Origin: a virus
Lineage: Duplodnaviria > Heunggongvirae > Uroviricota > Caudoviricetes
Reading direction: 5' to 3' (one strand)
IMG/VR virus record: IMGVR_UViG_3300032007_000002
Length of the DNA stretch: 64,000 nucleotides
The notes below the pieces were generated by a model, which was given only the letters and a program-made list of their open reading frames with translations, made no database searches and was not told where the DNA came from. Below are positions 44,856-61,873 of this stretch, one piece after another. Within the stretch, counting starts at the first letter, position 1, and every line of letters starts with the position of its first letter. A program made the position numbers and the translations under genes.

Positions 44856-46109
44856 ATGGCAAAGAAAGCTGCTACTGTCGCAGACGATAACTTTTCGTTC
44901 TGCCGCGGAATGAAGACACACGACCGGTATGTTGACGCCAAGGTTGACCACCCGGACTTCGGTTTCCTCGACACGGGTTCCTACGCCCTCAACGCACTCA
45001 TGTGCGGTGACATTTACGGCGGTTACCCGAAAAACGCCTTCATCATGGCTGCCGGTAAGAAGGGTACCGGTAAGTCCGTTCTCGGCAAGAACACCTTCAT
45101 CCGTCCGCTGATGAAGGAAGGTTACTACGCTTTCCACTACGACACGGAAAACGAAGGCATGAACGAGCGTAAGCTCATCGAGGAGAACGGCTACATAGAA
45201 GGCCAGTTCTCGCTCATCAAGGAAGCTACTACGGTCGAACAGCTGTTCATTTCCGTTTCCGGTCTTCTTGACCAGCTCGAAAAGGACCGCGGCGATGCAG
45301 TCGAAGTGAAGCGCAAGGTCTGCATCATCATCGACTCCCAGGGTCAGCTTTCTACCAGCCAGAGCCTTGCCCACGCAAAGAAGGAAAATATTACAGCCGA
45401 CCAGACCAAGGCCAAGCGTCTCAACGAAATGTATCGCGGTATCGTGAACCGTTGCGGCAACCTCGGCATCCCGGTGTTCGTCACGAACCACGTCTATGCC
45501 CAGATTGGCCAGATGTTCGGCGACCCGACCACCATTGCCGGTGGCGAAGGCGGCCAGCACTCCCCGTCCATCATCATGCTCATGCGCAAGACTTACGAAA
45601 AGTTCGAAAACGGCGTTATCCAGGGCGTGGTGTTCATTGCGAAGATTATCAAGAGTCGTTTTGTCCGCGACAAGCTCGAAGTGCCTATCTACCTCGACTA
45701 CAAGCACGGCCTTGACCGTTACTACGGCTTGCAGCGCTTCGCCGAATCTGCCGGGCTCCTCGTCGAATACAAGAAGAAGGACTTCCCGGATCTTGAACCG
45801 GCCCGCGATGCGAACGGCCAGGTTGTTCGCAAGAAGTGCTATGTCCTGAAGGACCCGAACCGCGACCCGAAGACCTGGCTCGTCGTTCCCGAGACGAAGC
45901 TCCGTCGCAAGGAAACGATTGGCACAATCCTCGATCCTATTAACCAGTGGGTCAAGGAGAACTTCAAGTACACGGCCCCGACCCTCTGGACCGGCGAGTT
46001 CAATGCCGACGAGGACTATATCCCCACCGACGCCGACAAGATGTCCGTCGATGACGATTACGCCCCGGCAGAACCGCCCATGGAACAGTCGGGTGACTCC
46101 GAAGAATAG
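44856..46109 (+). CDS. uvsX: UvsX/RecA-like recombinase
   Basis: DTGSYALNAL, GKKGTGKS, YDTE, IIIDS, TNHVY, GGEG, KSRF, GLDRYYGL. Confidence 0.95.
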   Translation: MAKKAATVADDNFSFCRGMKTHDRYVDAKVDHPDFGFLDTGSYALNALMCGDIYGGYPKNAFIMAAGKKGTGKSVLGKNTFIRPLMKEGYYAFHYDTENEGMNERKLIEENGYIEGQFSLIKEATTVEQLFISVSGLLDQLEKDRGDAVEVKRKVCIIIDSQGQLSTSQSLAHAKKENITADQTKAKRLNEMYRGIVNRCGNLGIPVFVTNHVYAQIGQMFGDPTTIAGGEGGQHSPSIIMLMRKTYEKFENGVIQGVVFIAKIIKSRFVRDKLEVPIYLDYKHGLDRYYGLQRFAESAGLLVEYKKKDFPDLEPARDANGQVVRKKCYVLKDPNRDPKTWLVVPETKLRRKETIGTILDPINQWVKENFKYTAPTLWTGEFNADEDYIPTDADKMSVDDDYAPAEPPMEQSGDSEE

Positions 46110-46188: not shown

Positions 46189-47715
46189 ATGCCAGACGTT
46201 TTTCAACCGCAGGTCCTGGATTTTGGTCGCGAGGAACTCATATTGCAGACGTTCTTTGCGCGGCCTACCGTTGCCAGGGCGATGTTGCCGATTCTTGATG
46301 TGGGCTTGTTCGACAATAACGGGAACAAGTCGCTTGTCAAGCTAATCCGCACGTTTATCAAGAAGTACAATAAGCTCCCGAACTCACAGGAAATTTACAC
46401 GAGCCTGGAACCGGTCGGGATAGGGGGCGAGGTCAGGGACAGGTTGAAGTTCATCTGCGGGTCTCCCCTGCAGAAGATGGACGACAAGTATTGTTCCGAC
46501 ATGATTGAGAGTTTTTACCGGGAAAAGAAATTCCACGGGATTTTGGTCAAGCAGGCGGAGCACTGGCACAACCACGAGATGGATGCCGTCCGGGCGATGA
46601 TACCGGAAGTCCAGCGTGTCCTCGCGTTCTCGCTTTCCACCAACATCGGCCAGGAGTTCATCCAGGATGCTGTCGAGATGATGCGGCGCCTGAACAACCC
46701 GGAAGAAAGTATTCCGACCAGGATTTCCGCGCTTTCGATTTTCACAAACCAGAACCGTGACCCGGGCAAGTTCCACGGCGGGTATTACCGCGCAGCGGTT
46801 TCCCTTATTTTCGGCCAGCCCAACAAGGGTAAGACCCTTTGCATGGTGTCGGAAGGCGCCTTTGCAATCGAGAACGGCTACAACGTGGTCTATATCACCC
46901 TCGAAATGGGCGAGGAGAAAATCTGGAACCGTCTTGCCGCGAACGTTACCGGCAAGCCGCACTGGGAGTTCTTCGGCCGCAACGAGGAAGAGGTTGCACA
47001 GGAACTCAACGACTATGCGACGATGGTCAGCGCGAAGATCGGGAAGCCCTACGGGATGTTCCGCATCCTCGACTTGCCGACCACGACTACGCCGGAAGAG
47101 ATTAACACGTACCTCGACGAAATCGAGGCGGCTACCGGACGCAAGGTCGATCTGCTTATCGTTGACTACCTCGGTATCGCGAAACCGAACAAGGGTGGCG
47201 CCAACGGGAACAACATGTTCCAGGATGGCGTGGAAAAGTGCGAACAGCTCCGCGACATCGCGAAGAAACGCCGCATCGCGGTGCTTTCCGCGGTCCAGTT
47301 CAATAGGACGGGCTACCACAACATCTTCGCGGGCATGGAGAACGTGGAAGGTTCCAGCGGCTACAACAACACCGCCGACCTTATCTACTCGCTCACCAGC
47401 AACGACGCGATGAACGAGAACTGCTTCCGCATGAACATCATCCTGAAAAGCCGTTTCGGACCGGCGGGCAAGTCCTTCTCCACGAAGTGCGACTTCACCA
47501 CCATGCGGTGGCAGGCTACTACGCCGGAGGAAGAGGAGCAGTGGCAGGTACTCGTGAAGCAGGAAATGGAAGAGCAGCGTGCGCTTCGCGCCGGTGGCGG
47601 TGGGGGCAAGCGCGTCCCGGTGGATCCGTCCATCGAGCAGGTGTCCCCGGGTTCTACCGGAAACCTCCGTCCCGGAACTTCCAACAACTTGCTTACCGGC
47701 AGAAAGGCGTCGTAA
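46189..47715 (+). CDS. Replicative DnaB-family helicase (gp41-like)
   Basis: GQPNKGKT, YITLEMGE, IVDYL, SAVQFNR, TADL, LKSRFG. Confidence 0.93.
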   Translation: MPDVFQPQVLDFGREELILQTFFARPTVARAMLPILDVGLFDNNGNKSLVKLIRTFIKKYNKLPNSQEIYTSLEPVGIGGEVRDRLKFICGSPLQKMDDKYCSDMIESFYREKKFHGILVKQAEHWHNHEMDAVRAMIPEVQRVLAFSLSTNIGQEFIQDAVEMMRRLNNPEESIPTRISALSIFTNQNRDPGKFHGGYYRAAVSLIFGQPNKGKTLCMVSEGAFAIENGYNVVYITLEMGEEKIWNRLAANVTGKPHWEFFGRNEEEVAQELNDYATMVSAKIGKPYGMFRILDLPTTTTPEEINTYLDEIEAATGRKVDLLIVDYLGIAKPNKGGANGNNMFQDGVEKCEQLRDIAKKRRIAVLSAVQFNRTGYHNIFAGMENVEGSSGYNNTADLIYSLTSNDAMNENCFRMNIILKSRFGPAGKSFSTKCDFTTMRWQATTPEEEEQWQVLVKQEMEEQRALRAGGGGGKRVPVDPSIEQVSPGSTGNLRPGTSNNLLTGRKAS

Positions 47716-50113: not shown

Positions 50114-50167
50114 TGTAATACCTAAGTTCCAAACAACGTGGTCGATTTGACCAAAGAGGTGAAAACA

Positions 50168-51745
50168 ATGACTCAACAGTACAACGATCCCAGCGTCCAG
50201 CAGATGGACGTCCTCGCTTGCGGCGCTCCCGCTGCAGCTCCCGAAAACCTCGGTTCTGGGGAAAGAAAAGAAAACCCCAACGTGTGGAAGCCGACCGGCA
50301 TTACCGGACCTGGCATGGAATACAAGGCGCGTGTGCGTCTCCTCCCCCGCGGTCTCGAGGGCCTCAAGAAAAATCTCTATCCGTCCGTGTGTCTCAAGAC
50401 CCACTTCTTGAAGAACCCGGCAGACGGCAAGACCCTCAAGGTTGTCCTTTGCCGCGAATCCCTTCCGGGACAGACTTGCCCGATTTGTAAGGCAATCGGC
50501 AAGATTTTCAACAGCATCAAGAAGCAGCAGCAACAGCAGGGTGCCAATGAAAAGGCTGCTAAGGAAGTTGCAAAGACTTATTGCAAGAACCTCTGGGCAG
50601 ACGAATACTGGTATTCCAACGTCCTCATCCGCACCGACGCACAGCATTCCGAATTTAACAACAAGATTAAGTGGTGGAAGCACACCCCCAAGGTTGAGCA
50701 GATGCTTGACGCTCCTTGCCGTGTGAACCCGAACGCCCCGGTCCAGGCTGCCGCCCAGGTCGATCCGAATGACGAATTTGCTATCCAGAAGGCAAAGCAG
50801 GCCGAAGCAAATAAGCAGGAATTCTTCATTCCGTATGACCCGCGTCATGGGCGCGACTTCTTCGTTACCCCGTCCTGGGACAGCGAAACCAGTCGTGTCA
50901 CTTACACTACCTGTTCATGGGCAGACAAGAGCACTCCGCTCGCCAACACTGACCAGGAAATGCTTGCCATCCTCCAGGCATGCCCGGACTTGAACGAACT
51001 TTACAAGGATATGCCGGACGAAGCCAAGGCAGAAGCTGAATGGGCAGACTTCTGGCGCCTCGTCAATGAAGCCCAGAACCCGGCTGCTGCTGGTTTCCAG
51101 GGACAGCAGGCTCAGCATGGTGGCTACCAGGCCCAGAACGGTGGTGCCGCAAATGGCATCATCCCGACTACCCAGGCCCCGTTCACCATGCCCGGTACAC
51201 AGCAGCAACAGCAGACTGGTTACAACCAGGGTGCCCCGATGAACCAGGTCAGCGGTGCCGAATACTTCGGTAACGCAGCCGCTCCGGCAAATGACCCGCT
51301 CGCCATCGGTGGCGGTCAGGCTCCGGCCCAGACGGGCTTTGCGGCCCCGGCAAACGATCCGCTTGCTCTCGGCGGTGGACAGCAGAACTTCGGTGCTCCG
51401 GCAAACGATCCGCTCGCGGTCGGTGGCGGTGTGCAGCAGAACTATGCCGCCCCGGCCCAGCAGCAGGCACAGCCGGCATATACCGCTCCCGCAGCCAACC
51501 CGGCCGAACCGGTGAACGACATGCTTTCGTTCGGTGGCCAGCCGCAGTATGGCAATCCTCAGTACCAGGCTGCAGGAAATCCGGGCTTTGTTGCCCAGAC
51601 TCCGGCCCAGCAGCAGCAACCGCAGGGCAATTTCGCGCCCACGATGAAGCCGCAGGCCCAGCCCGGTTATTCTCAGGCCCAGACCCAGCCGCTCATGAAC
51701 GAGTTGCCGGGCGGTGCCGATGAAGACATCGACCTCCCGTTCTAA
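50168..51745 (+). CDS. Single-stranded DNA-binding protein (gp32-like) with a long disordered tail
   Basis: WKPT, ARVRLLP, H...C...CPIC zinc site, YWYSNVLIRTD..H.E.N.KI, PYDPRHGRDF; ends DEDIDLPF. Confidence 0.9.
   Translation: MTQQYNDPSVQQMDVLACGAPAAAPENLGSGERKENPNVWKPTGITGPGMEYKARVRLLPRGLEGLKKNLYPSVCLKTHFLKNPADGKTLKVVLCRESLPGQTCPICKAIGKIFNSIKKQQQQQGANEKAAKEVAKTYCKNLWADEYWYSNVLIRTDAQHSEFNNKIKWWKHTPKVEQMLDAPCRVNPNAPVQAAAQVDPNDEFAIQKAKQAEANKQEFFIPYDPRHGRDFFVTPSWDSETSRVTYTTCSWADKSTPLANTDQEMLAILQACPDLNELYKDMPDEAKAEAEWADFWRLVNEAQNPAAAGFQGQQAQHGGYQAQNGGAANGIIPTTQAPFTMPGTQQQQQTGYNQGAPMNQVSGAEYFGNAAAPANDPLAIGGGQAPAQTGFAAPANDPLALGGGQQNFGAPANDPLAVGGGVQQNYAAPAQQQAQPAYTAPAANPAEPVNDMLSFGGQPQYGNPQYQAAGNPGFVAQTPAQQQQPQGNFAPTMKPQAQPGYSQAQTQPLMNELPGGADEDIDLPF
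51281..51430 (+). repeat. Three coding repeats APANDPLA(I/L/V)GGG
   Basis: GC(T/C)CCGGCAAA(T/C)GA(C/T)CCGCT occurs three times. Confidence 0.85.
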
Positions 51746-51763: not shown

Positions 51764-51818
51764 GAGCCGCCCCTGTGCCATACACGGGGGCGGTTCTTGT
51801 ATTGTTTTTGCTATATTT
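51764..51818 (+). terminator. Terminator after SSB, followed by the class 1 promoter for primase (51806-51818)
   Basis: GAGCCGCCCCTGTG-CCATA-CACGGGGGCGGTTC stem plus T-rich tract. Confidence 0.8.
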
Positions 51819-51826
51819 CATGCAAC

Positions 51827-53008
51827 ATGGGTTTACGTTTTGATAACATACCGCTATCCGCCTATGACGGGATCATTCGCAAGTTGTTCGGGCACCTGAA
51901 TTTGCAGGACAAGATGAACCACTACGAATGCGTATGTCCATTCTGTGGGGACATGAAGCAGGCGCACAAGCGAAAGTTATGGATTTACAAGGACACCTGG
52001 AAGACAACGTGCTTCAAGGGGTGTTTCGACGGGTCCCTGCTGAAGTTCTTGCAGGAAAATTACCCGGATGAATACCATGAACTTATCACCTATGCCATAA
52101 CCGATGACGACAACCGGGCAGGCGACAAGAAGCCTGCCGAAAAGCCGCTGGTTCAGCGTGTCGTCCCGACCCTTCCGTTTATGCCCGGAGAGCTCGTGTC
52201 TCTTTCAGACCCGACCGACCCGCTGGCGAAGAAGGCCAGGGACATCTGCGCCGGCCGAAGGATCCGCAAGGACGTGTATGAGACATGGTTTGCCTGCCGG
52301 ACTGGCGAGCAGTTTTATCACCGCAACCCGGACGGCTCCATCCAGTATTATCCGGGCACGACACGGCCGATAGGCAACGAATATCGTCACCGCATCATCA
52401 TGCCATACTACAAGTTCGGCGGGTTGTGGGGACAGTTCGATGCCCGAGACATGGATCCGAAAAGCGAACAGCGGTACCTGAACTTCAAGGGAGTTCGGCG
52501 CGAGGCATACAACATCGACTTTGTCGATTTTACCAAGCGTTTCTACATCCTCGAAGGATTGCTGGACTCGACGTTTATCCGCAATTCAATCGCCATTGGC
52601 GGCATTTCCCATCTTGCCGAGACGATGGCCGATAACCCGAAAATCAGGAAGTATATCAATAACGCGGTAGTTATATGGGATAACCCGTATAACGATGTCG
52701 CCGGTCGCCAGGCTTCCGTTTCCGCGATTTCCAAGCAGTTCAGGTGGTTCGACTGGGAAGGAATAGCATCGAAGGATATCAACGCCGCTGTCCTTGCCGG
52801 GGAGATGCCTTTGGACAGTTCCGGCTACGTGGACCCGGCGTTCCTCGAAAGGCGCATCCGCGAAAAGGATATGGCAGACATCGTCATGACGATGCGCTTT
52901 GGCAATATTCAGAAGGATATGTTCAAGGCGAAGATGGAAGCGCGGCGGAACGCCATGAAGAACAACACGCATATCCAGAACAACAAACATTCAATTTCCT
53001 TTATCTAG
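51827..53008 (+). CDS. DNA primase (gp61-like)
   Basis: Zinc domain CPFCGD...CFKGC; RIIMP; TOPRIM motifs EGLLDS, WDN, KDIN. Confidence 0.92.
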   Translation: MGLRFDNIPLSAYDGIIRKLFGHLNLQDKMNHYECVCPFCGDMKQAHKRKLWIYKDTWKTTCFKGCFDGSLLKFLQENYPDEYHELITYAITDDDNRAGDKKPAEKPLVQRVVPTLPFMPGELVSLSDPTDPLAKKARDICAGRRIRKDVYETWFACRTGEQFYHRNPDGSIQYYPGTTRPIGNEYRHRIIMPYYKFGGLWGQFDARDMDPKSEQRYLNFKGVRREAYNIDFVDFTKRFYILEGLLDSTFIRNSIAIGGISHLAETMADNPKIRKYINNAVVIWDNPYNDVAGRQASVSAISKQFRWFDWEGIASKDINAAVLAGEMPLDSSGYVDPAFLERRIREKDMADIVMTMRFGNIQKDMFKAKMEARRNAMKNNTHIQNNKHSISFI

Positions 53009-53014
53009 TCCATT

Positions 53015-55192
53015 ATGCCGGCAAAGACTACTATCGCAAACATGAAGTTGGGAGTCCGCAAGCGCCTCGTGAAGTTCGAGGTGCAGTATGGCTCGTTCAC
53101 CAATTTCGAGAACGTCTCTCGCGTCGGCGACGACGAGTATCTCACCGCTCGCCGTATCGCGAAGGTGTTCGGCATAAGCCAGGAATTTCTGTCCGAGCTC
53201 GGGTTGCTTTCCAGGGTGGATTATATCGTCTGCCAGAACCGGACGAAGGCATACCTGTGGAAGCAGGTCGTCGCCGAGATGTATCGCCGGGGGTTTACCG
53301 TGAAGGTCCCGGACCACCCGATGGCCGAGGTGAACGTGGACACGCTCGTTGCCGATACCGGCGTGGACGTGAAGAACTTCTACAAGCAGATCAAGCTCGG
53401 GCGCATCACGCCTCACCGCAGGCCGGGCGAACGATACCTGTATGTGTACATGGGCGAGTATGACAAGTTCCTCCGCAGTTACTTCCTCCCGGATAGCCTC
53501 CGGTGGATAGGGAGCCAGCCGCTGGGTTCCGGCGAGGCCGCGATTTTCTGCGGCTACAAGGACACTGCAGCATTTACTGCCGCGATTGCCCGCGGGGTGA
53601 TGCCGGTCCATCGCATCCAGGGTGTCAAGGGAGCCCGCCGCAAGATTACCAAGTCGGACCTCGCGTCGTGGCTGGAAAACTGTCGGAAGACCTTCCGCAG
53701 GAACCCACTTCCCGATGCGCTTCCGGTAAAGCTCGCGGCTATGTACATGCGCCGGAGCGTGTGGCAGTTCAAGAAGATTACGAAACACCTCGAAGTCGTC
53801 CCGGGCCGCCCGGGCTACTACACCAGGGAGAGCATGGACCGGTGGTACATGCGCGAGTGGTGCATGAAGGCATACGGGGAACATTCCTGCTATTACACCC
53901 CTGCCCAGATATGTGCGAAGTTCAACCGCACCGTCGGGTGGGTGAACGAGTTCATCGTCGGCAAGTGCGACGTCTACACGACCCGCCGGTATGTGATGAC
54001 GCAGGAAGAATTTCGTAAGAACTATGTAGGAAAGCCGGACCAGTATCCTTTCATCTACGGGTATCACAAGCCTGCCGTGGAAGCCATCGTGAAGGCCTCG
54101 CCCGAGATGCACACCATCCCGGAAATCGACGATGCCCGCGAGGGTGTCCACCGTCACCCGCATGGTGTCCGGCAGCTTACCCAGTCCAAGGAAGAGAGCA
54201 TCAGGATGAAGATTGCGGCCGGCATGCGCAAGACGATGAAGCGCAAGGCGAAGGACGCGAAGGAACATGCGCCGGAGGCGCCACTTCCGATCAGGAAGAA
54301 CTCGATTGAGCTCGGCATCAAGGCATCCCTGCAAAGGAACGCGCTGGAACGCGACGCCAAGTACAGGGAGGAACGCAAGAGGGCGCATGCCGCGGAGAAG
54401 GAGCAGAACGAACTGCGCCAGATACTGGGCATCACGCCGAAACGCGAGCGGGTAACCCCGAAGATGCTGCTGCAGACGTCGAAGGTCCCGTTGAATGTCT
54501 ATGTCGTCCACACGCTTGGCTACTCGTCGGGCATGTTTACCGACCGCATGCCCGAGAAGGACGCCTACGTGGTCAGGTCGCCCGAGCTGTATCTTCCGGT
54601 AAAGTCGAACAAGGAGCAGTCCAACTCGTTCAGCCTCGTGTCCAATGCCTATGACAAGGTGATCTCGTTCAAGCCGGCGGTGCCTCCCGCGTGGTATGTG
54701 CTCGTGGGCGGCAACACCGTCATCAACGACATGGGGTTCCCGGAAAAACTGGATGCCGTCCCGCCGGAAGTCGCTGCGGTCGGCGCCTTCGGCTACGAGA
54801 ATTTCCTGCATAACGGATCGTGGATAGACGGCCCGTCATACGGCATCTATTCGACGTTCCCGACGGACTTGAAGTCGAGCGAGTGGGTAATGGGCAAGCG
54901 TTCGGTGAACAGTTCGCATCAGGTGGTTGTCCTCGACGGCCCGTTCATCGCCGTCCGCGGTATTTACGGCGATGTCCTCGGAGACTTGCGCCAGTTCTCG
55001 CCGCTGGTTGAGGGCGATGTCGGCCAGCGTATGGTGGCCGCGGTCGTTTCGATAGTCCTCACCCGAATGGGTCTGAAGCTGATGCAGATTCCGGTTGAGT
55101 GCTCCATGTGCTCCGACCAGCCGATAAAGCCCGGGACACTGGAATGGAACCGTATCGAGGATCTCCTAATCAAGTTTTATCGGCACACTTGA
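53015..55192 (+). CDS. Multi-HTH (MerR/Xis-like) protein fused to a degenerate GT-A (GT2-like) domain
   Basis: About five HTH-like units (e.g. YLTARRIAKVFGIS, LGSGEAAIFCGY..IARGVMP); C-terminal SLVSNAYD, AAVGAFG, VVVLDGPFIAVR. Confidence 0.65.
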   Translation: MPAKTTIANMKLGVRKRLVKFEVQYGSFTNFENVSRVGDDEYLTARRIAKVFGISQEFLSELGLLSRVDYIVCQNRTKAYLWKQVVAEMYRRGFTVKVPDHPMAEVNVDTLVADTGVDVKNFYKQIKLGRITPHRRPGERYLYVYMGEYDKFLRSYFLPDSLRWIGSQPLGSGEAAIFCGYKDTAAFTAAIARGVMPVHRIQGVKGARRKITKSDLASWLENCRKTFRRNPLPDALPVKLAAMYMRRSVWQFKKITKHLEVVPGRPGYYTRESMDRWYMREWCMKAYGEHSCYYTPAQICAKFNRTVGWVNEFIVGKCDVYTTRRYVMTQEEFRKNYVGKPDQYPFIYGYHKPAVEAIVKASPEMHTIPEIDDAREGVHRHPHGVRQLTQSKEESIRMKIAAGMRKTMKRKAKDAKEHAPEAPLPIRKNSIELGIKASLQRNALERDAKYREERKRAHAAEKEQNELRQILGITPKRERVTPKMLLQTSKVPLNVYVVHTLGYSSGMFTDRMPEKDAYVVRSPELYLPVKSNKEQSNSFSLVSNAYDKVISFKPAVPPAWYVLVGGNTVINDMGFPEKLDAVPPEVAAVGAFGYENFLHNGSWIDGPSYGIYSTFPTDLKSSEWVMGKRSVNSSHQVVVLDGPFIAVRGIYGDVLGDLRQFSPLVEGDVGQRMVAAVVSIVLTRMGLKLMQIPVECSMCSDQPIKPGTLEWNRIEDLLIKFYRHT

Positions 55193-55208: not shown

Positions 55209-55221
55209 TTTTGCTATATTT
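55209..55221 (+). promoter_or_regulatory. Class 1 promoter TTTTGCTATATTT
   Basis: Exact motif upstream of the clamp gene. Confidence 0.75.
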
Positions 55222-55246
55222 CATAAAAATTGAAACGAGACGAACC

Positions 55247-56092
55247 ATGGCATCATTGACATTTTCGGAACAATTTTATGCGGTCTTGCAGAAGGTAGTC
55301 AAGGCATTGCCGCAGACACCGGTCCTTCTGTTCAAGGAAGACGGGTTTTCCCGCCTGTCTTATTCCAAGAACGGCCTGCTTTTCCACATCGCGGCATCGC
55401 CGGATGACTTCAACTATGAAGGTGAGATGATTGGCCTTTCCTCGCTGCGCGAGTTCAACGACTATGTCACCGCAATCGGCTACCCGAAGGGTGGCGAAAT
55501 CAGCCTAGTGCGCGAAATTTCCATGTCCGGCCACGCATACGACTTCGTGAAGTTCATCGGCAACAAGAAGACGCTCCGCTGCCGCATGGTGGACCTGGCC
55601 TTCTTTACCGAAGACAGTAAGGACATCCCGGCGATGCCGGACGAAAACCCGCTCGCGCTCGCAGGCAAGCTGTGCCTTACCCAGGAAGCAATCAAGGATT
55701 TGTTCAGGAGCCGTAAGCTGGCCCCGGGTTGCGACAACGTGACCATTACCTGCTACGAGAACAAGATTACCGTGACCCTCCGAGGCACGGTCGGCCAGCA
55801 GGTTGACCTCGACTACACGTACCCGAACATTACCGTCGATACAGAAATCATTAAGCAGGCCTACGCCAACTCGGTCCTCCGCATGTTCCCGATCGAGATG
55901 TTCAAGATTATGGACTCGATGGGCATGGACTATACGGTAGAGCTTCGCTACGCGCCGGGCGCGAACGGTGGTCAGATGGCCCTGTGTTCCTATGCGTCAA
56001 TCCCGGGCGCAAACGGCCAGACGATTACGGTGTACATCGGAACGGTCGAGTCCGAAGCGGCTACGATTGCAAATATTGACATGGTTCGCTAG
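55247..56092 (+). CDS. Sliding clamp (T4 gp45-like)
   Basis: TFSEQFYAVLQK, IGLSSLREF and LTQEAIKDLFRSRK...DNVTITCYENKI align by eye with gp45. Confidence 0.75.
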   Translation: MASLTFSEQFYAVLQKVVKALPQTPVLLFKEDGFSRLSYSKNGLLFHIAASPDDFNYEGEMIGLSSLREFNDYVTAIGYPKGGEISLVREISMSGHAYDFVKFIGNKKTLRCRMVDLAFFTEDSKDIPAMPDENPLALAGKLCLTQEAIKDLFRSRKLAPGCDNVTITCYENKITVTLRGTVGQQVDLDYTYPNITVDTEIIKQAYANSVLRMFPIEMFKIMDSMGMDYTVELRYAPGANGGQMALCSYASIPGANGQTITVYIGTVESEAATIANIDMVR

Positions 56093-56100
56093 GAGGCCGC

Positions 56101-56577
56101 ATGAACAGGTCTTCTCATTTCATCGAGGTGTATGGAGTCCGCAATGCCAGGAAGGGCATCTCGAAGCCCGATGCCGTTGTGTCGGTCACTCCGCGTCCGT
56201 ATATCGCCAACGGCAGGCCGCAGTATGAAATCACGATTGAGGCCGAGCTCGCCGGTGGCGAAGGCGAGACGCTTCCGCCGGAAGTTCTGACGACTTTAAT
56301 CCAGGAGGCCGGGAAATCCTGCGTGAACCGATGCGTGGCCGACCTCATGCTTCTCTATGCGAAGCAGTCCAAGACGGCCATGCCGCTGAACATCTACAAC
56401 GACACCGATAACAAGCTGGTTGTCGGCCACCGCTACAAGGCGGTCCTCGTCGGGTTAAATACCGATGCCGGCAAGATGTTCTATCTCGTGCGCAAGTCCG
56501 TGTTCGATGCCGGAAACGACGAGACGGTCGAAAAGATGATCCGTGAACTCTGTTCCGATATGGGGGTCCTTGAATGA
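56101..56577 (+). CDS. Hypothetical protein
   Basis: AGGAGG RBS; coupled to uvsW. Confidence 0.75.
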   Translation: MNRSSHFIEVYGVRNARKGISKPDAVVSVTPRPYIANGRPQYEITIEAELAGGEGETLPPEVLTTLIQEAGKSCVNRCVADLMLLYAKQSKTAMPLNIYNDTDNKLVVGHRYKAVLVGLNTDAGKMFYLVRKSVFDAGNDETVEKMIRELCSDMGVLE

Positions 56578-58397
56578 GCCTGACGTCCAGGGTGACAGTC
56601 ATGTTTGTTCCAGGAGACGCGTTCAACTGCCGCGTCGACTATTACGGCAGTTCTGTTCAGGACCTGAACAGGGTGAACAACTACGTCTATACCTCGATGC
56701 AGTTCTATGACGAGGGCAAGGGCTTCATGGCGAAGTCCCTCGGGATGAACAAGCACGAGTGCGTGGTCGAATTTTTCGACCGCAAGACGCGCATGCTTCC
56801 GGTCGGCCTTATCCCGCGCGTAGCCAAGCTGTTGCGCACCGAGTTCGGTGTCGGCGTGAAGATTGGCCTCGCCAAGGAAATCGACGACATGTTCAGGCCT
56901 CCGCATGGACCGGTGACGGAGCAGGCCATCCGTTCCTATGCGAGCACTCTGAACATACACAACGCGAAGACCGGCAAGCCGCTCGTCCCGTATGACCACC
57001 AGATTAGGCTCGCGACCCGTGCACTCAACGGAAGGCGCATTTCCCTGCTGGCGTGCACCAGCGCGGGCAAGTCGCTTTCGATGATGATTATTGCCAGGTA
57101 TCTGCTCGAACGCGAGCACCGTCGCCGTGTCCTCATCATCGTCCCGTCTACTAACCTCGTGGAACAGCTTTTCAGCGACTTCCATGACGACTACGGATGG
57201 GACCACGCCGGCCTGTATTGCACTCTGCTGCACTCGACCTCGACGGACAAGCTGACGAAGTCCGAGAAGGCCCGCCTGGAAGCGCTCAACCTCGGCGAAG
57301 AGGCCAAGCTGAAACCGATTACGATTTCGACCTGGCAGACCCTGCAGAACAAGCGGGCGTCCTTCTTCGAGGTGTTCGATGCGGTGATCGTGGACGAGGC
57401 GCACTCCACCCGCGGTCAGAAGCTGCGCGAAATCCTGTCCTTGTGCGAGAACGCCAATAACTTCAAGGTTGGCGTTTCGGGAACCCTACCGGATGATGGC
57501 CTTGACGCCGGGTATATCGAGAGCGGTCTCGGACGCAAGGAGGAGATTGTCCACCTCCATGAACTGGTGGAGAAGGGCATCCTTACGCCGGTGCAGGTGG
57601 AGGCGGTGTTCATCCCGTACCCGCCCAAGCTCCGCCCGAAGATTAAGAGCATGCACTACGACACCGAGTTCGACATGGCCACGGAGAACAGCTCCCGCAA
57701 GGACATCATCGACATGCTCATTCGTGCCGGCAAGATTACGACTGCGGAAAACACGGTTATCCTGTTCCGCTACATCGACAACCTGGAAATGGTGATGAAC
57801 TTCCTGAAGGAGCGCCACCCGGAGTTCAAGTATTTCGTAATCAAGGGTGACGTCCCGACCGACGAGCGAGAAGAAATCCGCAAGTCCATCGAGGCGAGCA
57901 CGGGAAACATCATCATCGCGACCTACGGCTGCATGCAGCAGGGCGTGAACATCAAGCTGCTGCATAACCTCATCATGGCGGATCCGGCGAAGAGCCCCTA
58001 CATGGTGGTGCAGTCAATCGGCCGTATTGTCCGTAAGCATCCGGCCAAGCCGCTTGCAAGGGTGTTCGACCTGGTTGACGATGCGTCTTACATGGGCCGT
58101 CCGTGTCGCGGGAAGCCGGCGCAGCTCCAGATGAACGGGCTTCTGCGCCAGTTCGCCAAGTTCAGGAAGTCCTACTACGATGCCGACAAGATTCCGGTGA
58201 ACCGCATCGACCTCGAAGGTATTTACTGCGTGAGTATCACCGAGGAGGATATCATGGAGCGCATCTTGAAGGCTATCGAGGCGGCAAAGGCCGCCAAGGC
58301 GAAGAAGGACGCGGCAAAGGGCAACCAGCAGGCATCCGGCAGCGTGTACAAGAAGAAATTTTTCTTAAATCCATTCCAACAGCAAGGAGTAGTCTAA
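56574..58397 (+). CDS. uvsW: UvsW-like SF2 helicase
   Basis: [42 protein letters not shown]. Confidence 0.95.
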
Positions 58398-60250: not shown

Positions 60251-61873
60251 ATGTACCTTAACTGTCTTCTCCACGTATCGGGCGAACGCCCGTTAGAACT
60301 TACCGAGTGGCTGGATTTCCACCTTGCCCTCGGTTTTGACTGTGTCTATGTCTACGATTCGGGGAACCGCCCCTGGATTGACGGCATTTGCGAACGTTAT
60401 GGCGAAAAGGTGCGCCTCATGCCCCGTATCGAGGGCGGGTGGACCAAGCGCCGTGACATCGTGGCCGACCACCTTTCCAAGCGCAAGAGCCCGGAATGGT
60501 GTATCTGCCTCATGGACAACGAATACGTGTGGATTGACTTCCGCCAGGTGCGCTCGCTCAAGGACTATATCCAGATAGCCGGTATGAGAACCCGCAGCAG
60601 GGCAATCACCGGCTATTTCGTCTATATGGGCGCCAAGAACCCGATGCCGAACCGCGTAGGTTCCGTCATCGACTGCTTCACCCACACTCGCCCGAACCCG
60701 CAGGGCAAGGTCGCGCCGAACGGCAAGACGCTTTTCGGTGGCGAAACCTTCTTCCTTTATGATCGCATGGGCATGCAGCCTCTCGCCGGTCCTATCCAGC
60801 CTACCTGCGCTGAATGGGTTGACGGCAACGGGGCCCGTCTGACGAAGCAGGCGCTCGATGCGGCAAACGCAAACGGCTTCAACTCCCTCAACTACGCGAT
60901 GCGTATTTACAAGTACGCGGTGCTTTCCGACAAGGAAATGAACTATGCCGTGGGTGAGGAACGCCCGGTCGGCTATACCCAGCTCGACCTCTCCATGCAG
61001 AACCTCCGCAAGTTCCTTCTCGGCGCACCGGTGGTGGAAGAGTCAGAAACGCTTTTCACCAAGCCGGCTGACTTCGACGAGGCTGCGGACGCAGTGAAGA
61101 ACGGTCCGGCCCGCACCGACACCCTGTTCGACGTGAACCTCCCGGGTCTCCCGATTACCCGCGCAAAGCTCGACCAGCTCATCCTCGAAGGCAACTACTA
61201 CGAGGACGTGGTCGAATACCTGAACGCCCGCGGCATCGAGTTCAACCAGGACATCCTTCTCAACGCGTTCGACAAGGAACGCCAGACCATTATTGACAGC
61301 TCCCCGGTATATCGCCAGGTGCAGGAACTGATCGACGACGGTCGCTCCGTCAAGGAAATCTCCAAGATTACCGGTATCGCCGAAGTGACCCTTGACCGCA
61401 TGTCCGCTGCGTTGAAGGTCCTTGATATCAGGACCGGCGTCATCACGGAAGATGTCATCGCCAAGGCAGTCGGCGCATTCGAGGAAGCCGAGGAAAAGGC
61501 CATGTCCGCAAAGGAAATCGAGCAGAACGATGCCCGGTTTGCCGAAGTCAACGCGAAGCGTGCAGCCGCGCAGAAGAAGTCCCGCGAGAACCGCGCCTTG
61601 AAGAAGGCGGGCAAGCAGGTTCAGAAGAAGACCGCCGAAGACGACCTCCCCATGGACATCCTCTCCAGCGGCGAGCAGGGAGCCCTCGACAAGGCCCTTG
61701 ACGCGCTCGGAACGGACGACGACATGCCGAGTGCGGAAGCCATCGCGGCAATCGAGGAAACCCACGAGGAAAAGGCACCGGTGACGGTAGTCATCGACCC
61801 GGTGGTTCCCGAGACGCCCGCCCCGGTCGTCGAAGCCCCGGCTGCCCCTGCCCCGAAGAAGGGTAAGAAATAG
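60251..61873 (+). CDS. GT92/GT2-like glycosyltransferase-fold domain fused to a C-terminal HTH and a disordered tail
   Basis: EWLDFHLALGFDCVYVYDS and WCICLMDNEYV; HTH VQELIDDGRSVKEISKITGIAEVTLDRM; class 2 motif at 60214-60227. Confidence 0.7.
   Translation: MYLNCLLHVSGERPLELTEWLDFHLALGFDCVYVYDSGNRPWIDGICERYGEKVRLMPRIEGGWTKRRDIVADHLSKRKSPEWCICLMDNEYVWIDFRQVRSLKDYIQIAGMRTRSRAITGYFVYMGAKNPMPNRVGSVIDCFTHTRPNPQGKVAPNGKTLFGGETFFLYDRMGMQPLAGPIQPTCAEWVDGNGARLTKQALDAANANGFNSLNYAMRIYKYAVLSDKEMNYAVGEERPVGYTQLDLSMQNLRKFLLGAPVVEESETLFTKPADFDEAADAVKNGPARTDTLFDVNLPGLPITRAKLDQLILEGNYYEDVVEYLNARGIEFNQDILLNAFDKERQTIIDSSPVYRQVQELIDDGRSVKEISKITGIAEVTLDRMSAALKVLDIRTGVITEDVIAKAVGAFEEAEEKAMSAKEIEQNDARFAEVNAKRAAAQKKSRENRALKKAGKQVQKKTAEDDLPMDILSSGEQGALDKALDALGTDDDMPSAEAIAAIEETHEEKAPVTVVIDPVVPETPAPVVEAPAAPAPKKGKK

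What the first reader, a model, noticed from the sequence alone, without database searches (positions are those of the whole stretch)
53015..55192. Array of ~5 MerR/Xis-type HTH domains fused to an apparently dead GT2-like glycosyltransferase
Seen: tandem HTH-like units, a basic helical linker, then a GT-A-like domain (SNAYD, VGAFG, VVVLDGPFIAVR). The expected HxD/DxD metal-binding position reads GGNT, and the terminal HxS reads MCS. The gene lies between primase and the gp45 clamp. Inference: either a sequence-targeted DNA sugar-modifying or sugar-reading protein, or a transcription factor that uses a pseudo-GT domain to sense nucleotide sugars. I know of no characterised protein with this architecture.
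Basis: partly seen in the sequence, partly recalled or inferred. Interest (0 to 1): 0.78.

Follow-up and report, generated by a model that had tools for sequence, protein, structure and literature searches.

The report
Primase-coupled DNA-binding glycosyltransferase-like phage protein
A giant rumen phage makes, together with its DNA primase, a 725-residue protein that joins a row of excisionase-type DNA-binding domains to a sugar-transferase-shaped domain lacking the usual catalytic acids; the pairing with primase is kept in every related phage examined, so it is probably an undescribed part of the replication machinery.

Summary
ORF 53015-55192 (+) is a real gene under strong purifying selection (dN/dS about 0.07). 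It encodes an array of Xis/MerR-type winged HTH units. Four are well supported and a fifth rests on secondary-structure pattern only. A basic tether and helical linker follow, then a confidently modelled GT-A domain (pLDDT 90). Its nearest structure is majastridin (Z 17.0), followed by viral Glyco_tranf_2_5 clusters.

The canonical DxD slot (GGNT, residues 565-568) holds no conserved acid in the 27 long-form representatives. D572 and R648 are invariant in all 37 representatives, and several other polar residues are conserved within each lineage. "Dead" is therefore plausible but not shown.

New here:
- The linker plus GT-A core is a family found almost only in large T4-like phage contigs.
- Apart from two loci whose flank is missing, primase lies directly upstream of it in all 29 IMG/VR loci. 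It usually overlaps the primase stop (TAATG/TGATG behind a GGAGG). The PCNA-fold clamp lies directly downstream.
- A shorter form lacks the HTH array.
- Near-complete relatives show no second thymidylate-synthase-like hydroxymethylase and no Tet/JBP hit.
- All five genomes searched keep a second GT-like protein (Glyco_tranf_2_4).

Best reading: a DNA-anchored, replisome-associated GT-A protein; whether it catalyses anything, and on what acceptor, is unknown. No paper describing it was found. The scan has noted only this same stretch before.

The parts
53015..55192 (+). Whole gene, 725 aa (P0001)
   Evidence: Open frame; 41 homologue clusters; dN/dS 0.07.
53126..53302 (+). wHTH unit 1 (residues 38-96)
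   Evidence: VIA-align: Xis, MerR, BldC and TerS-N domains, best 4j2n at Z 5.9, rmsd 2.4 over 51 residues.
53312..53494 (+). wHTH unit 2 (residues 100-160)
   Evidence: DSSP pattern; hhalign to unit 3 93.6% and to unit 4 84.5%.
53507..53695 (+). wHTH unit 3 (residues 165-227), the most basic unit
   Evidence: Pfam HTH_17 at 191-224, E 3.6e-5, below the cut-off; mean net charge +8.5 across the family.
53702..53884 (+). wHTH unit 4 (residues 230-290)
   Evidence: hhalign to unit 3 89.8% and to unit 1 49.6%.
53885..54109 (+). Unit 5 (residues 291-365), HTH-like by secondary structure only
   Evidence: DSSP pattern; no profile similarity to units 1-4. It holds the family's most conserved N-terminal residues: I299, K302, F303, W309, G349.
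54110..54259 (+). Basic, probably disordered tether (residues 366-415)
   Evidence: pLDDT below 50 for 367-393; mean net charge +5.2 across the family.
54260..54454 (+). Conserved helical linker (residues 416-480), shared with the short-form family
   Evidence: Profile matches of short proteins start at profile position about 420; R468 and L471 nearly invariant.
54455..55189 (+). GT-A fold domain (residues 481-725), majastridin / Glyco_tranf_2_5-like
   Evidence: AF2 pLDDT 90.3; 2qgi Z 17.0, rmsd 3.3 over 202 residues; Atlas TM 0.68-0.70 to PF13712 clusters.
54707..54718 (+). GGNT (residues 565-568), the topological DxD slot between strand beta-4 and the short strand after it
   Evidence: DSSP E81-86 and E89-91 of the model. 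Column counts: at 565 and 566 the 27 long forms have one acid each; at 567 and 568, none. The short form has D at 566 in 5 of 10.
54728..54730 (+). D572 codon, invariant Asp
   Evidence: 37 of 37 representatives.
54956..54958 (+). R648 codon, invariant Arg of the GPFIAVRG strand
   Evidence: 37 of 37 representatives.
51797..53008 (+). Context: DNA primase, whose stop lies 6 nt before the start of this gene
   Evidence: phrog_47, E 3e-29; junction sequence; stop/start overlap in relatives.
55211..56092 (+). Context: PCNA/gp45-fold sliding clamp (probable start at Met13, nt 55247)
   Evidence: Atlas structural matches to PCNA clusters, TM 0.67-0.70; no Pfam or PHROG hit.
60251..61873 (+). Context: second GT-like protein of the module (P0050)
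   Evidence: Pfam Glyco_tranf_2_4, 31.4 bits, above the 27.5 cut-off; a homologue in 5 of 5 related jumbo-phage records.

Best explanation
This is a DNA-anchored accessory protein of the phage replication machinery. The five N-terminal Xis/MerR-type winged helices and the basic tether hold it on duplex DNA, much as a pre-assembled excisionase or BldC head-to-tail filament would. The conserved helical linker carries a divergent Glyco_tranf_2_5 / majastridin-type GT-A domain. The protein is made together with primase by translational coupling, so it would act at or just behind the fork. The most likely job is nucleotide-sugar binding and co-replicative sugar transfer to phage DNA or to a DNA-bound replisome protein. 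The site would be non-canonical and probably metal-independent, built around invariant D572 and R648 rather than a DxD. Shown: gene, folds, domain order, conservation, purifying selection, synteny and coupling. Inferred: DNA binding, ligand, catalysis and acceptor.
For: Folds and family:
- GT-A fold at high confidence, nearest to majastridin and to viral PF13712 clusters.
- Four of 37 relatives give sub-threshold Glyco_tranf_2_5 matches.
- wHTH units are supported by structure, profile comparison and Pfam.
- The N-terminal half carries a conserved positive charge, about +19 on average.

Linkage to the replisome:
- Primase lies directly upstream on the same strand in 27 of the 29 IMG/VR loci; in the other two (L026 and L027) it lies about 180 nt upstream, and in L038 the upstream flank is missing. 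The clamp lies directly downstream in 28 of 29; in L037 the downstream flank is missing.
- The same order holds in L001, L005 and L006. In the short-form loci L003 and L008 one extra gene sits before the clamp.
- The start codon overlaps the primase stop (TAATG or TGATG, behind GGAGG) in at least 19 loci.

Selection and active-site conservation:
- dN/dS is 0.02-0.06 for the HTH array and 0.09-0.17 for the GT domain.
- D572 and R648 are invariant in 37 of 37. H635, D641, D666 and D/E695 are conserved in the long form.

Precedents:
- T4 alpha-glucosyltransferase co-purifies with the gp45 clamp (PMC13216743).
- GT-A-fold phage DNA glycosyltransferases exist (bioRxiv 10.1101/2023.12.21.572611).
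- A second GT-like protein, Glyco_tranf_2_4, is kept in 5 of 5 related genomes.
Against: - The DxD slot has no conserved acid in the long form.
- The helix where GT2 enzymes carry the ED base reads V-A-A-V-V-S here. Known phage GT-A DNA glycosyltransferases keep R...DDD...EDY/F (bioRxiv 10.1101/2023.12.21.572611).
- The N-terminal, nucleotide-binding half of the domain is the least conserved and least confident part (pLDDT 63-70 in blocks 41-60).
- No source of hydroxylated bases was found. Thymidylate-synthase-family hits are absent from two of three relatives that are at least 91% complete, and the hits that do occur look like canonical ThyA (418-436 bits). There was no Tet/JBP hit, but that search also rang in none of the control genomes, so it is uninformative.
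- Tandem winged-helix arrays in solved structures (UFL1, RPC62, SelB, ScpB) are often protein or RNA scaffolds rather than DNA readers.
- The short form works without any HTH array.
Confidence: 0.38

Rival explanations
1. Pseudo-enzyme regulator. The GT-A domain no longer transfers sugar but binds a nucleotide or nucleotide-sugar. Through the HTH array it couples that signal to replication initiation or priming, or to transcription.
For: The DxD slot and the ED helix both lack their acids in the long form, while other pocket residues stay conserved. The nearest solved structure, majastridin, is deposited only as an atp-operon ORF product and in complex with UDP (PDB entry titles). The long and short forms conserve different polar residue sets, which suggests a remodelled site. 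No base-hydroxylating enzyme was found.
Against: The short form has no DNA-binding array, so the core function cannot be that of a transcription factor. No regulated promoter or repeated operator was found; tandem repeats are absent from the intergenic DNA. Translational coupling to primase suggests a stoichiometric partner rather than a low-copy regulator.
Confidence: 0.3
2. Purely structural replisome factor. The wHTH array and the GT-A domain are protein-protein and DNA scaffolds, for example a primase or helicase loader or an origin-binding factor, with no small-molecule ligand.
For: The best whole-array matches are tandem winged-helix scaffolds, though weak. The N-terminal model is rigid (pTM 0.76). 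Primase-X coupling is conserved. Most invariant residues are G, P or W.
Against: Invariant D572 and R648, and conserved H, D and Y residues in the C-terminal half, fit a pocket better than a surface. GT-A domains used only as scaffolds are rare (general knowledge).
Confidence: 0.17
3. Ordinary glycan glycosyltransferase acting on host surface polysaccharide or on virion proteins, which happens to sit in the replication module.
For: Jumbo phages carry many glycosyltransferases for polysaccharide modification (PMC7824862). Glyco_tranf_2_5 members occur in Acinetobacter lipooligosaccharide outer-core loci (PMC4172580).
Against: It is fused to a five-unit DNA-binding array. Its position between primase and clamp, with stop/start overlap, is invariant. 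The catalytic acids are missing. No sugar-nucleotide biosynthesis genes lie nearby.
Confidence: 0.05

Closest known systems
Majastridin (Rhodobacter blasticus atp-operon ORF6; PDB 2nxv, 2qgi)
   Same: Single-domain GT-A fold. It is the best structural match (Z 17.0, rmsd 3.3 over 202 residues), well above the next match at 13.5.
   Different: No detectable sequence relation (no PDB hit even at E 10). It is a bacterial stand-alone protein with no HTH array and no replication context.
Pfam Glyco_tranf_2_5 (PF13712), including stand-alone phage proteins of about 220-230 aa
   Same: Nearest family by language-model features (0.97), by Atlas structure (TM 0.68-0.70) and in BFVD (A0A6J7XBW3, E 2.8e-12). 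The GAVG-FGY and DGPF-A-RG blocks align to profile positions 83-147 in one relative.
   Different: The window protein gives no Pfam hit. Only 4 of 37 relatives match, all below the cut-off. There is no acid at the DxD slot. It has an added linker and HTH array, and it is coupled to primase.
Phage DNA glycosyltransferases: T4 alpha-GT and beta-GT, and the 5mYOX-associated GT-A enzymes / JGT
   Same: A sugar-transferase fold encoded in or near the replication genes. T4 alpha-GT binds the clamp (PMC13216743). GT-A DNA glycosyltransferases exist (bioRxiv 10.1101/2023.12.21.572611).
   Different: The T4 enzymes are GT-B. The GT-A DNA enzymes keep R...DDD...EDY/F, which is absent here. No hydroxymethylase or dioxygenase partner was found.
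Xis / BldC / TraN-type MerR-like winged HTH proteins
   Same: The unit fold matches. BldC and excisionases assemble head-to-tail on DNA (established knowledge, recalled, not tested here). TraN of pIP501 carries two such folds in one chain (4pm3 and 4p0y).
   Different: Here four to five units sit in one polypeptide, packed into one predicted body and fused to an enzyme-like domain.

Membership tests
GT-A glycosyltransferase fold superfamily | Single Rossmann-like alpha/beta/alpha domain with the GT-A strand order | tested here: met
   AF2 pLDDT 90.3. There are 78 Foldseek PDB hits at E<=1e-3, and the listed rows are GT-A or related nucleotide-diphospho-sugar transferase folds. VIA Z 17.0 to 2qgi and 11.9 to SpsA.
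Pfam Glyco_tranf_2_5 (PF13712) | Profile match at or above the gathering score (27 bits) | tested here: not met
   No hit for P0001. Four of 37 relatives match (best E 4.9e-5); the one match seen in detail, P0013, scored 14.5 bits, below the cut-off. The six-frame family search also found nothing in six related phage records.
Catalytically competent GT-A (GT2-like) | Acidic DxD/HxD at the end of beta-4 that binds the metal and diphosphate | tested here: inconclusive
   The slot was mapped by model topology only: residues 565-568 read GGNT. At 565 and 566 the 27 long forms have one acid each. Invariant D572 lies four residues further on, after the next short strand. No residue-level alignment to a real family member could be obtained.
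Catalytically competent GT-A (GT2-like) | Catalytic base (ED-type acid) in the helix after the G....R strand | tested here: inconclusive
   Helix 671-685 has no conserved acid in the long form. The short form keeps H673 (10 of 10) and D/E677 (8 of 10). The mapping is by topology, not by superposition.
Catalytically competent GT-A (GT2-like) | Binds an NDP-sugar and transfers the sugar | not testable with these tools
   Needs biochemistry.
HTH_17 / excisionase-MerR winged HTH (PF12728) | Profile match at or above the gathering score (27 bits) | tested here: inconclusive
   P0001 scores 21-24 bits, below the cut-off. Sixteen of 26 relatives match, best E 7.2e-9. P0024 also touches BldC and excisionase NCBIfam models weakly.
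HTH_17 / excisionase-MerR winged HTH (PF12728) | beta-alpha-alpha-hairpin fold superposable on Xis/MerR domains | tested here: met
   Unit 1: 4j2n Z 5.9, rmsd 2.4 over 51 of 54 residues, followed by many Xis, MerR and BldC rows. Units 2-4 share its DSSP pattern and match each other. Unit 5 rests on pattern only.
HTH_17 / excisionase-MerR winged HTH (PF12728) | Binds duplex DNA | not testable with these tools
   Only conserved positive charge supports it.
Phage DNA glycosyltransferases of GT-A type (5mYOX-associated, JGT-like) | R...DDD...EDY/F active-site motifs | tested here: not met
   No DDD and no ED in P0001 or in the long-form consensus. The motif definition comes from bioRxiv 10.1101/2023.12.21.572611.
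Phage DNA glycosyltransferases (any fold) | Genome also encodes an enzyme that makes a hydroxylated base (TS-like hydroxymethylase or Tet/JBP dioxygenase) | tested here: inconclusive
   PF00303 is absent from G003 and G004 (91-93% complete). It is present only as a canonical-looking ThyA in G001 and G006. PF12851 gave no hit, but it also rang in no control genome.

The most novel reading that the evidence does not exclude
A GT-A-fold protein is a genuine, stoichiometric subunit of the primosome in a whole clade of jumbo T4-like phages. It would do one of two things. It could glycosylate nascent DNA, the RNA primer or a replisome protein by a route that needs no hydroxymethylated base. Or it could act as a nucleotide-sugar checkpoint that ties priming to the host's metabolic state. 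In one sub-lineage it has gained a built-in five-unit excisionase-like DNA clamp.
Probability: 0.25. Interest if true: 0.85.

Novelty: new variant of a known kind. Interest (0 to 1): 0.62.

Why it matters
T4-type replisomes are among the best understood, and no sugar-transferase-fold component is known in them. A protein of this fold that is always translated with primase would be one of two things: a new way of marking phage DNA as it is made, which bears on evasion of restriction and CRISPR and on sequencing or engineering of such phages; or a new kind of replisome accessory factor. The five-unit Xis-type array in one chain is also a natural single-chain model of excisionase or BldC filaments on DNA.

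Tried and rejected
- BLAST self-comparison found no repeats.
- tblastn against 50,697 INPHARED phage records found no match.
- PHROGs and NCBIfam gave no family for P0001.
- Profile searches of PDB sequences with A2, A4, P0024 and P0029 found nothing related. No residue-level alignment to majastridin or any GT could therefore be made.
- hhalign of the domain profile against a real Glycos_transf_2 gene from L008 gave no alignment.
- The family search for PF13712 in six related phage records found no bona fide member to align with.
- Complex prediction of the clamp with residues 360-725 scored 0.01. The verdict was "no answer", so it is not evidence either way.
- In short-form phages the extra gene between X and the clamp is not a detached HTH array (hhalign probability 0.1-0.2%).
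- A profile search for the HTH array fused to other domains found only fragments.
- No tandem or regularly spaced repeats that could be a five-site operator were found, including around 38.05-38.35 kb.
- The C-terminal EDLLIKFY looks like a PIP box, but the model places it in the last helix of the fold (model residues 230-244, pLDDT blocks 86-93). It was rejected as a free clamp-binding peptide.
- The alignment-based IMG/VR scan with all 37 domains failed for lack of a conserved stretch. It succeeded with a narrower alignment.
Full report
**The gene.** Frame 53015-55192 (+) is open for 725 codons. It lies in a T4-type replication block with these genes in order:
- UvsX/RecA-like (44856-46109)
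- DnaB-type helicase (46189-47715)
- three small unknown ORFs
- gp32 (50138-51745)
- primase (51797-53008)
- this gene
- a PCNA-fold clamp (55211-56092)
- a 158-aa unknown ORF
- a UvsW-like helicase (56574-58397)
- a dUTPase-family gene
- a FEN/RNase H
- a second GT-like protein (60251-61873)
- gp46/SbcC.

The window's own assembly is not held. A 172-kb IMG/VR record carries a 97% identical copy. Relatives sit on contigs of 250-415 kb, so this is a jumbo or mega-phage; earlier notes of this scan call it a rumen phage. Against 95-97% identical copies, dN/dS is 0.07 overall: 0.02-0.06 for the HTH array, 0.03-0.04 for the linker and 0.09-0.17 for the GT domain. A 606-codon antisense ORF overlapping the gene is therefore an artefact.

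**Family.** An exhaustive HMMER search of 1.84 billion cluster representatives found 41 proteins. About 25 are full-length long forms of 660-780 aa. Ten are short forms of 270-394 aa. These short forms match only from the helical linker onward and begin with an acidic, aromatic stretch followed by a basic stretch in place of the HTH array. A word-indexed search found 46 clusters (at 90% identity), almost all of them further short forms. None carries a precomputed Pfam domain or an informative name.

**N-terminal half.** The AF2 model of residues 1-400 (pLDDT 81, pTM 0.76) repeats a strand-helix-helix-hairpin-helix pattern five times.
- An all-against-all structural search places unit 1 on excisionases, MerR domains, BldC, the pSK1 Par protein and a small-terminase N-domain. 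The best match is Pukovnik Xis at Z 5.9, rmsd 2.4 over 51 of 54 residues. These Z values are low in absolute terms because the domain is only about 50 residues, but the list is uniform.
- Units 2-4 match each other by profile comparison (84-94% probability). Unit 1 matches unit 4 weakly (50%). Unit 5 matches nothing.
- Sixteen of 26 family members hit Pfam HTH_17, best E 7e-9. The window protein itself stays below the cut-off.
- Whole-array Foldseek matches are weak and go to tandem winged-helix scaffolds: UFL1, RPC62, SelB, ScpB and TraN.
- Net charge is conserved and positive. Unit 3 averages +8.5, the tether +5.2, and the whole array about +19.

DNA binding is therefore a reasonable inference but has not been shown.

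**C-terminal domain.** The AF2 model of residues 480-725, built from a 37-sequence alignment, has pLDDT 90.3 and pTM 0.89.
- Foldseek returns 78 PDB hits at E<=1e-3, and the listed ones are GT-A or related nucleotide-diphospho-sugar transferase folds.
- Re-alignment puts majastridin first (2qgi, Z 17.0, rmsd 3.3 over 202 residues). Heparosan synthase follows at 13.5, K4CP at 13.0 and SpsA at 11.9.
- After the protein's own family, the ESM Atlas gives viral and bacterial Glyco_tranf_2_5 clusters at TM 0.68-0.70, and 0.97 by sequence features.
- The top BFVD hit is a phage protein named "Glycosyltransferase like family", E 2.8e-12.
- By sequence, only 4 of 37 relatives touch PF13712 (the one seen in detail scored 14.5 bits, below the 27-bit cut-off), and the window protein does not.

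So the fold is certain, the family relationship is distant, and formal membership is not met.

**Is the domain dead?** In the model, strand beta-4 is W560-G565 and the next short strand is T568-I570. In GT-A enzymes the DxD sits in the loop between these two strands (established fold knowledge, recalled, not tested here).

Across the 27 long forms, columns 565 and 566 hold one acid each and columns 567 and 568 are mostly T or S. The short forms have D at 566 in 5 of 10. The helix where GT2 enzymes carry the ED base has no conserved acid in the long forms, whereas the short forms keep H673 (10 of 10) and D/E677 (8 of 10). Known phage GT-A DNA glycosyltransferases keep R...DDD...EDY/F (bioRxiv 10.1101/2023.12.21.572611), and that signature is absent here.

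Three points count against a simple "dead" verdict:
- D572 and R648 are invariant in all 37 representatives.
- The long forms conserve H635, D641, D666, D/E695 and several aromatic residues.
- The domain is under purifying selection.

Metal-independent GT-A enzymes that use basic residues in place of a DxD are known (GT14, recalled, not tested here). No residue-level alignment to a real GT could be obtained. The model's coordinates cannot be inspected with these tools. Catalytic status therefore stays open.

**Context, the main new evidence.** Of the 29 IMG/VR loci found with a domain profile, 28 have flank on the upstream side, and all 28 carry primase upstream on the same strand. In 26 it is directly upstream; in L026 and L027 the called start lies about 180 nt further on. 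L038 lacks that flank. The clamp lies directly downstream in 28 of 29; L037 lacks that flank. The same order holds in L001, L005 and L006. In the short-form loci L003 and L008 one extra unknown gene sits before the clamp. One divergent member, L007, sits next to a prohead protease instead.

In at least 19 loci the ATG shares its A with the primase stop (TAATG or TGATG), and GGAGG lies 8-9 nt upstream inside the primase gene. This is a classic arrangement for translational coupling. The window has a 6-nt spacer and no GGAGG. The core of the family (linker plus GT-A) is therefore a long-standing partner of the primase gene, and the HTH array is a later addition in one branch.

**Is there an acceptor?** Thymidylate-synthase-family genes are absent from two of three relatives that are at least 91% complete. 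Where present they score 418-436 bits over the full profile, as canonical ThyA would. Tet/JBP gave no hit, but that search also rang in none of the control genomes, so it says little. The known routes to hydroxylated bases are thus not supported, which weakens the plain DNA-glycosylation reading.

It is kept in all five related genomes searched. Two GT-like proteins co-conserved with the replication genes keep some sugar chemistry on DNA or on the replisome in play. T4 offers a precedent in alpha-GT, which co-purifies with gp45 (PMC13216743).

**Verdict.**
- The best reading (0.38) is a DNA-anchored, primase-coupled GT-A protein that binds a nucleotide-sugar and probably transfers it through a non-canonical site.
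- Close behind (0.30) is a non-catalytic ligand-sensing subunit.
- Next (0.17) is a pure scaffold or loader.
- An ordinary glycan transferase is unlikely (0.05).

No Pfam, PHROG, NCBIfam or PDB family and no paper covers this architecture. Both folds are known; the fusion and the replisome linkage are new.

Noticed in passing
window 47718, 48501 and 60216 (+); 4712, 21167, 24153 and 25131 (-): AACCTAGTTT occurs 7 times exactly and twice more with one mismatch, against 1.6 expected. The three + strand copies lie about 25-35 nt upstream of ORF starts (47749, 48538, 60251), including the second GT-like gene, so it is probably a phage promoter element. None precedes the gene studied here.
   Followed up: partly
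window 60251-61873 (+): A second GT-like protein (Pfam Glyco_tranf_2_4, 31.4 bits, above the cut-off) with a long charged C-terminal half. Homologues are present in 5 of 5 related jumbo-phage records, but not next to the primase-clamp block.
   Followed up: partly
L003 5881-6699; L008 8137-9078: Phages with the short form carry an extra gene of 272-313 aa, with no known family, between the GT-like gene and the clamp. It is not a detached HTH array.
   Followed up: partly
L005, L014-L016, L019-L025, L028-L036 junctions: The primase genes end in ...GGAGGTnnnnnTTC-TAATG or TGATG. A Shine-Dalgarno-like GGAGG is embedded in the primase coding sequence and serves the next gene. The window's own lineage has lost both the overlap and the GGAGG.
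   Followed up: yes
window 56101-56577 (+): A 158-aa ORF between the clamp and the UvsW-like helicase has no Pfam hit. A 161-aa gene holds the same position in L001.
   Followed up: no
window 51340-51456: A 54-nt tandem repeat (2.2 copies) lies inside the low-complexity Q/G/A/P tail of gp32, matching the APANDPLAxGGG repeats.
   Followed up: no
P0001 residues 696-699 and alignment column 606: Many long-form members conserve three cysteines (C606 in 17 of 27, C696 in 17 of 27, C699 in 16 of 27; C-S-M-C near the C-terminus). This could be a metal or disulfide site. The window protein has G at 606.
   Followed up: no
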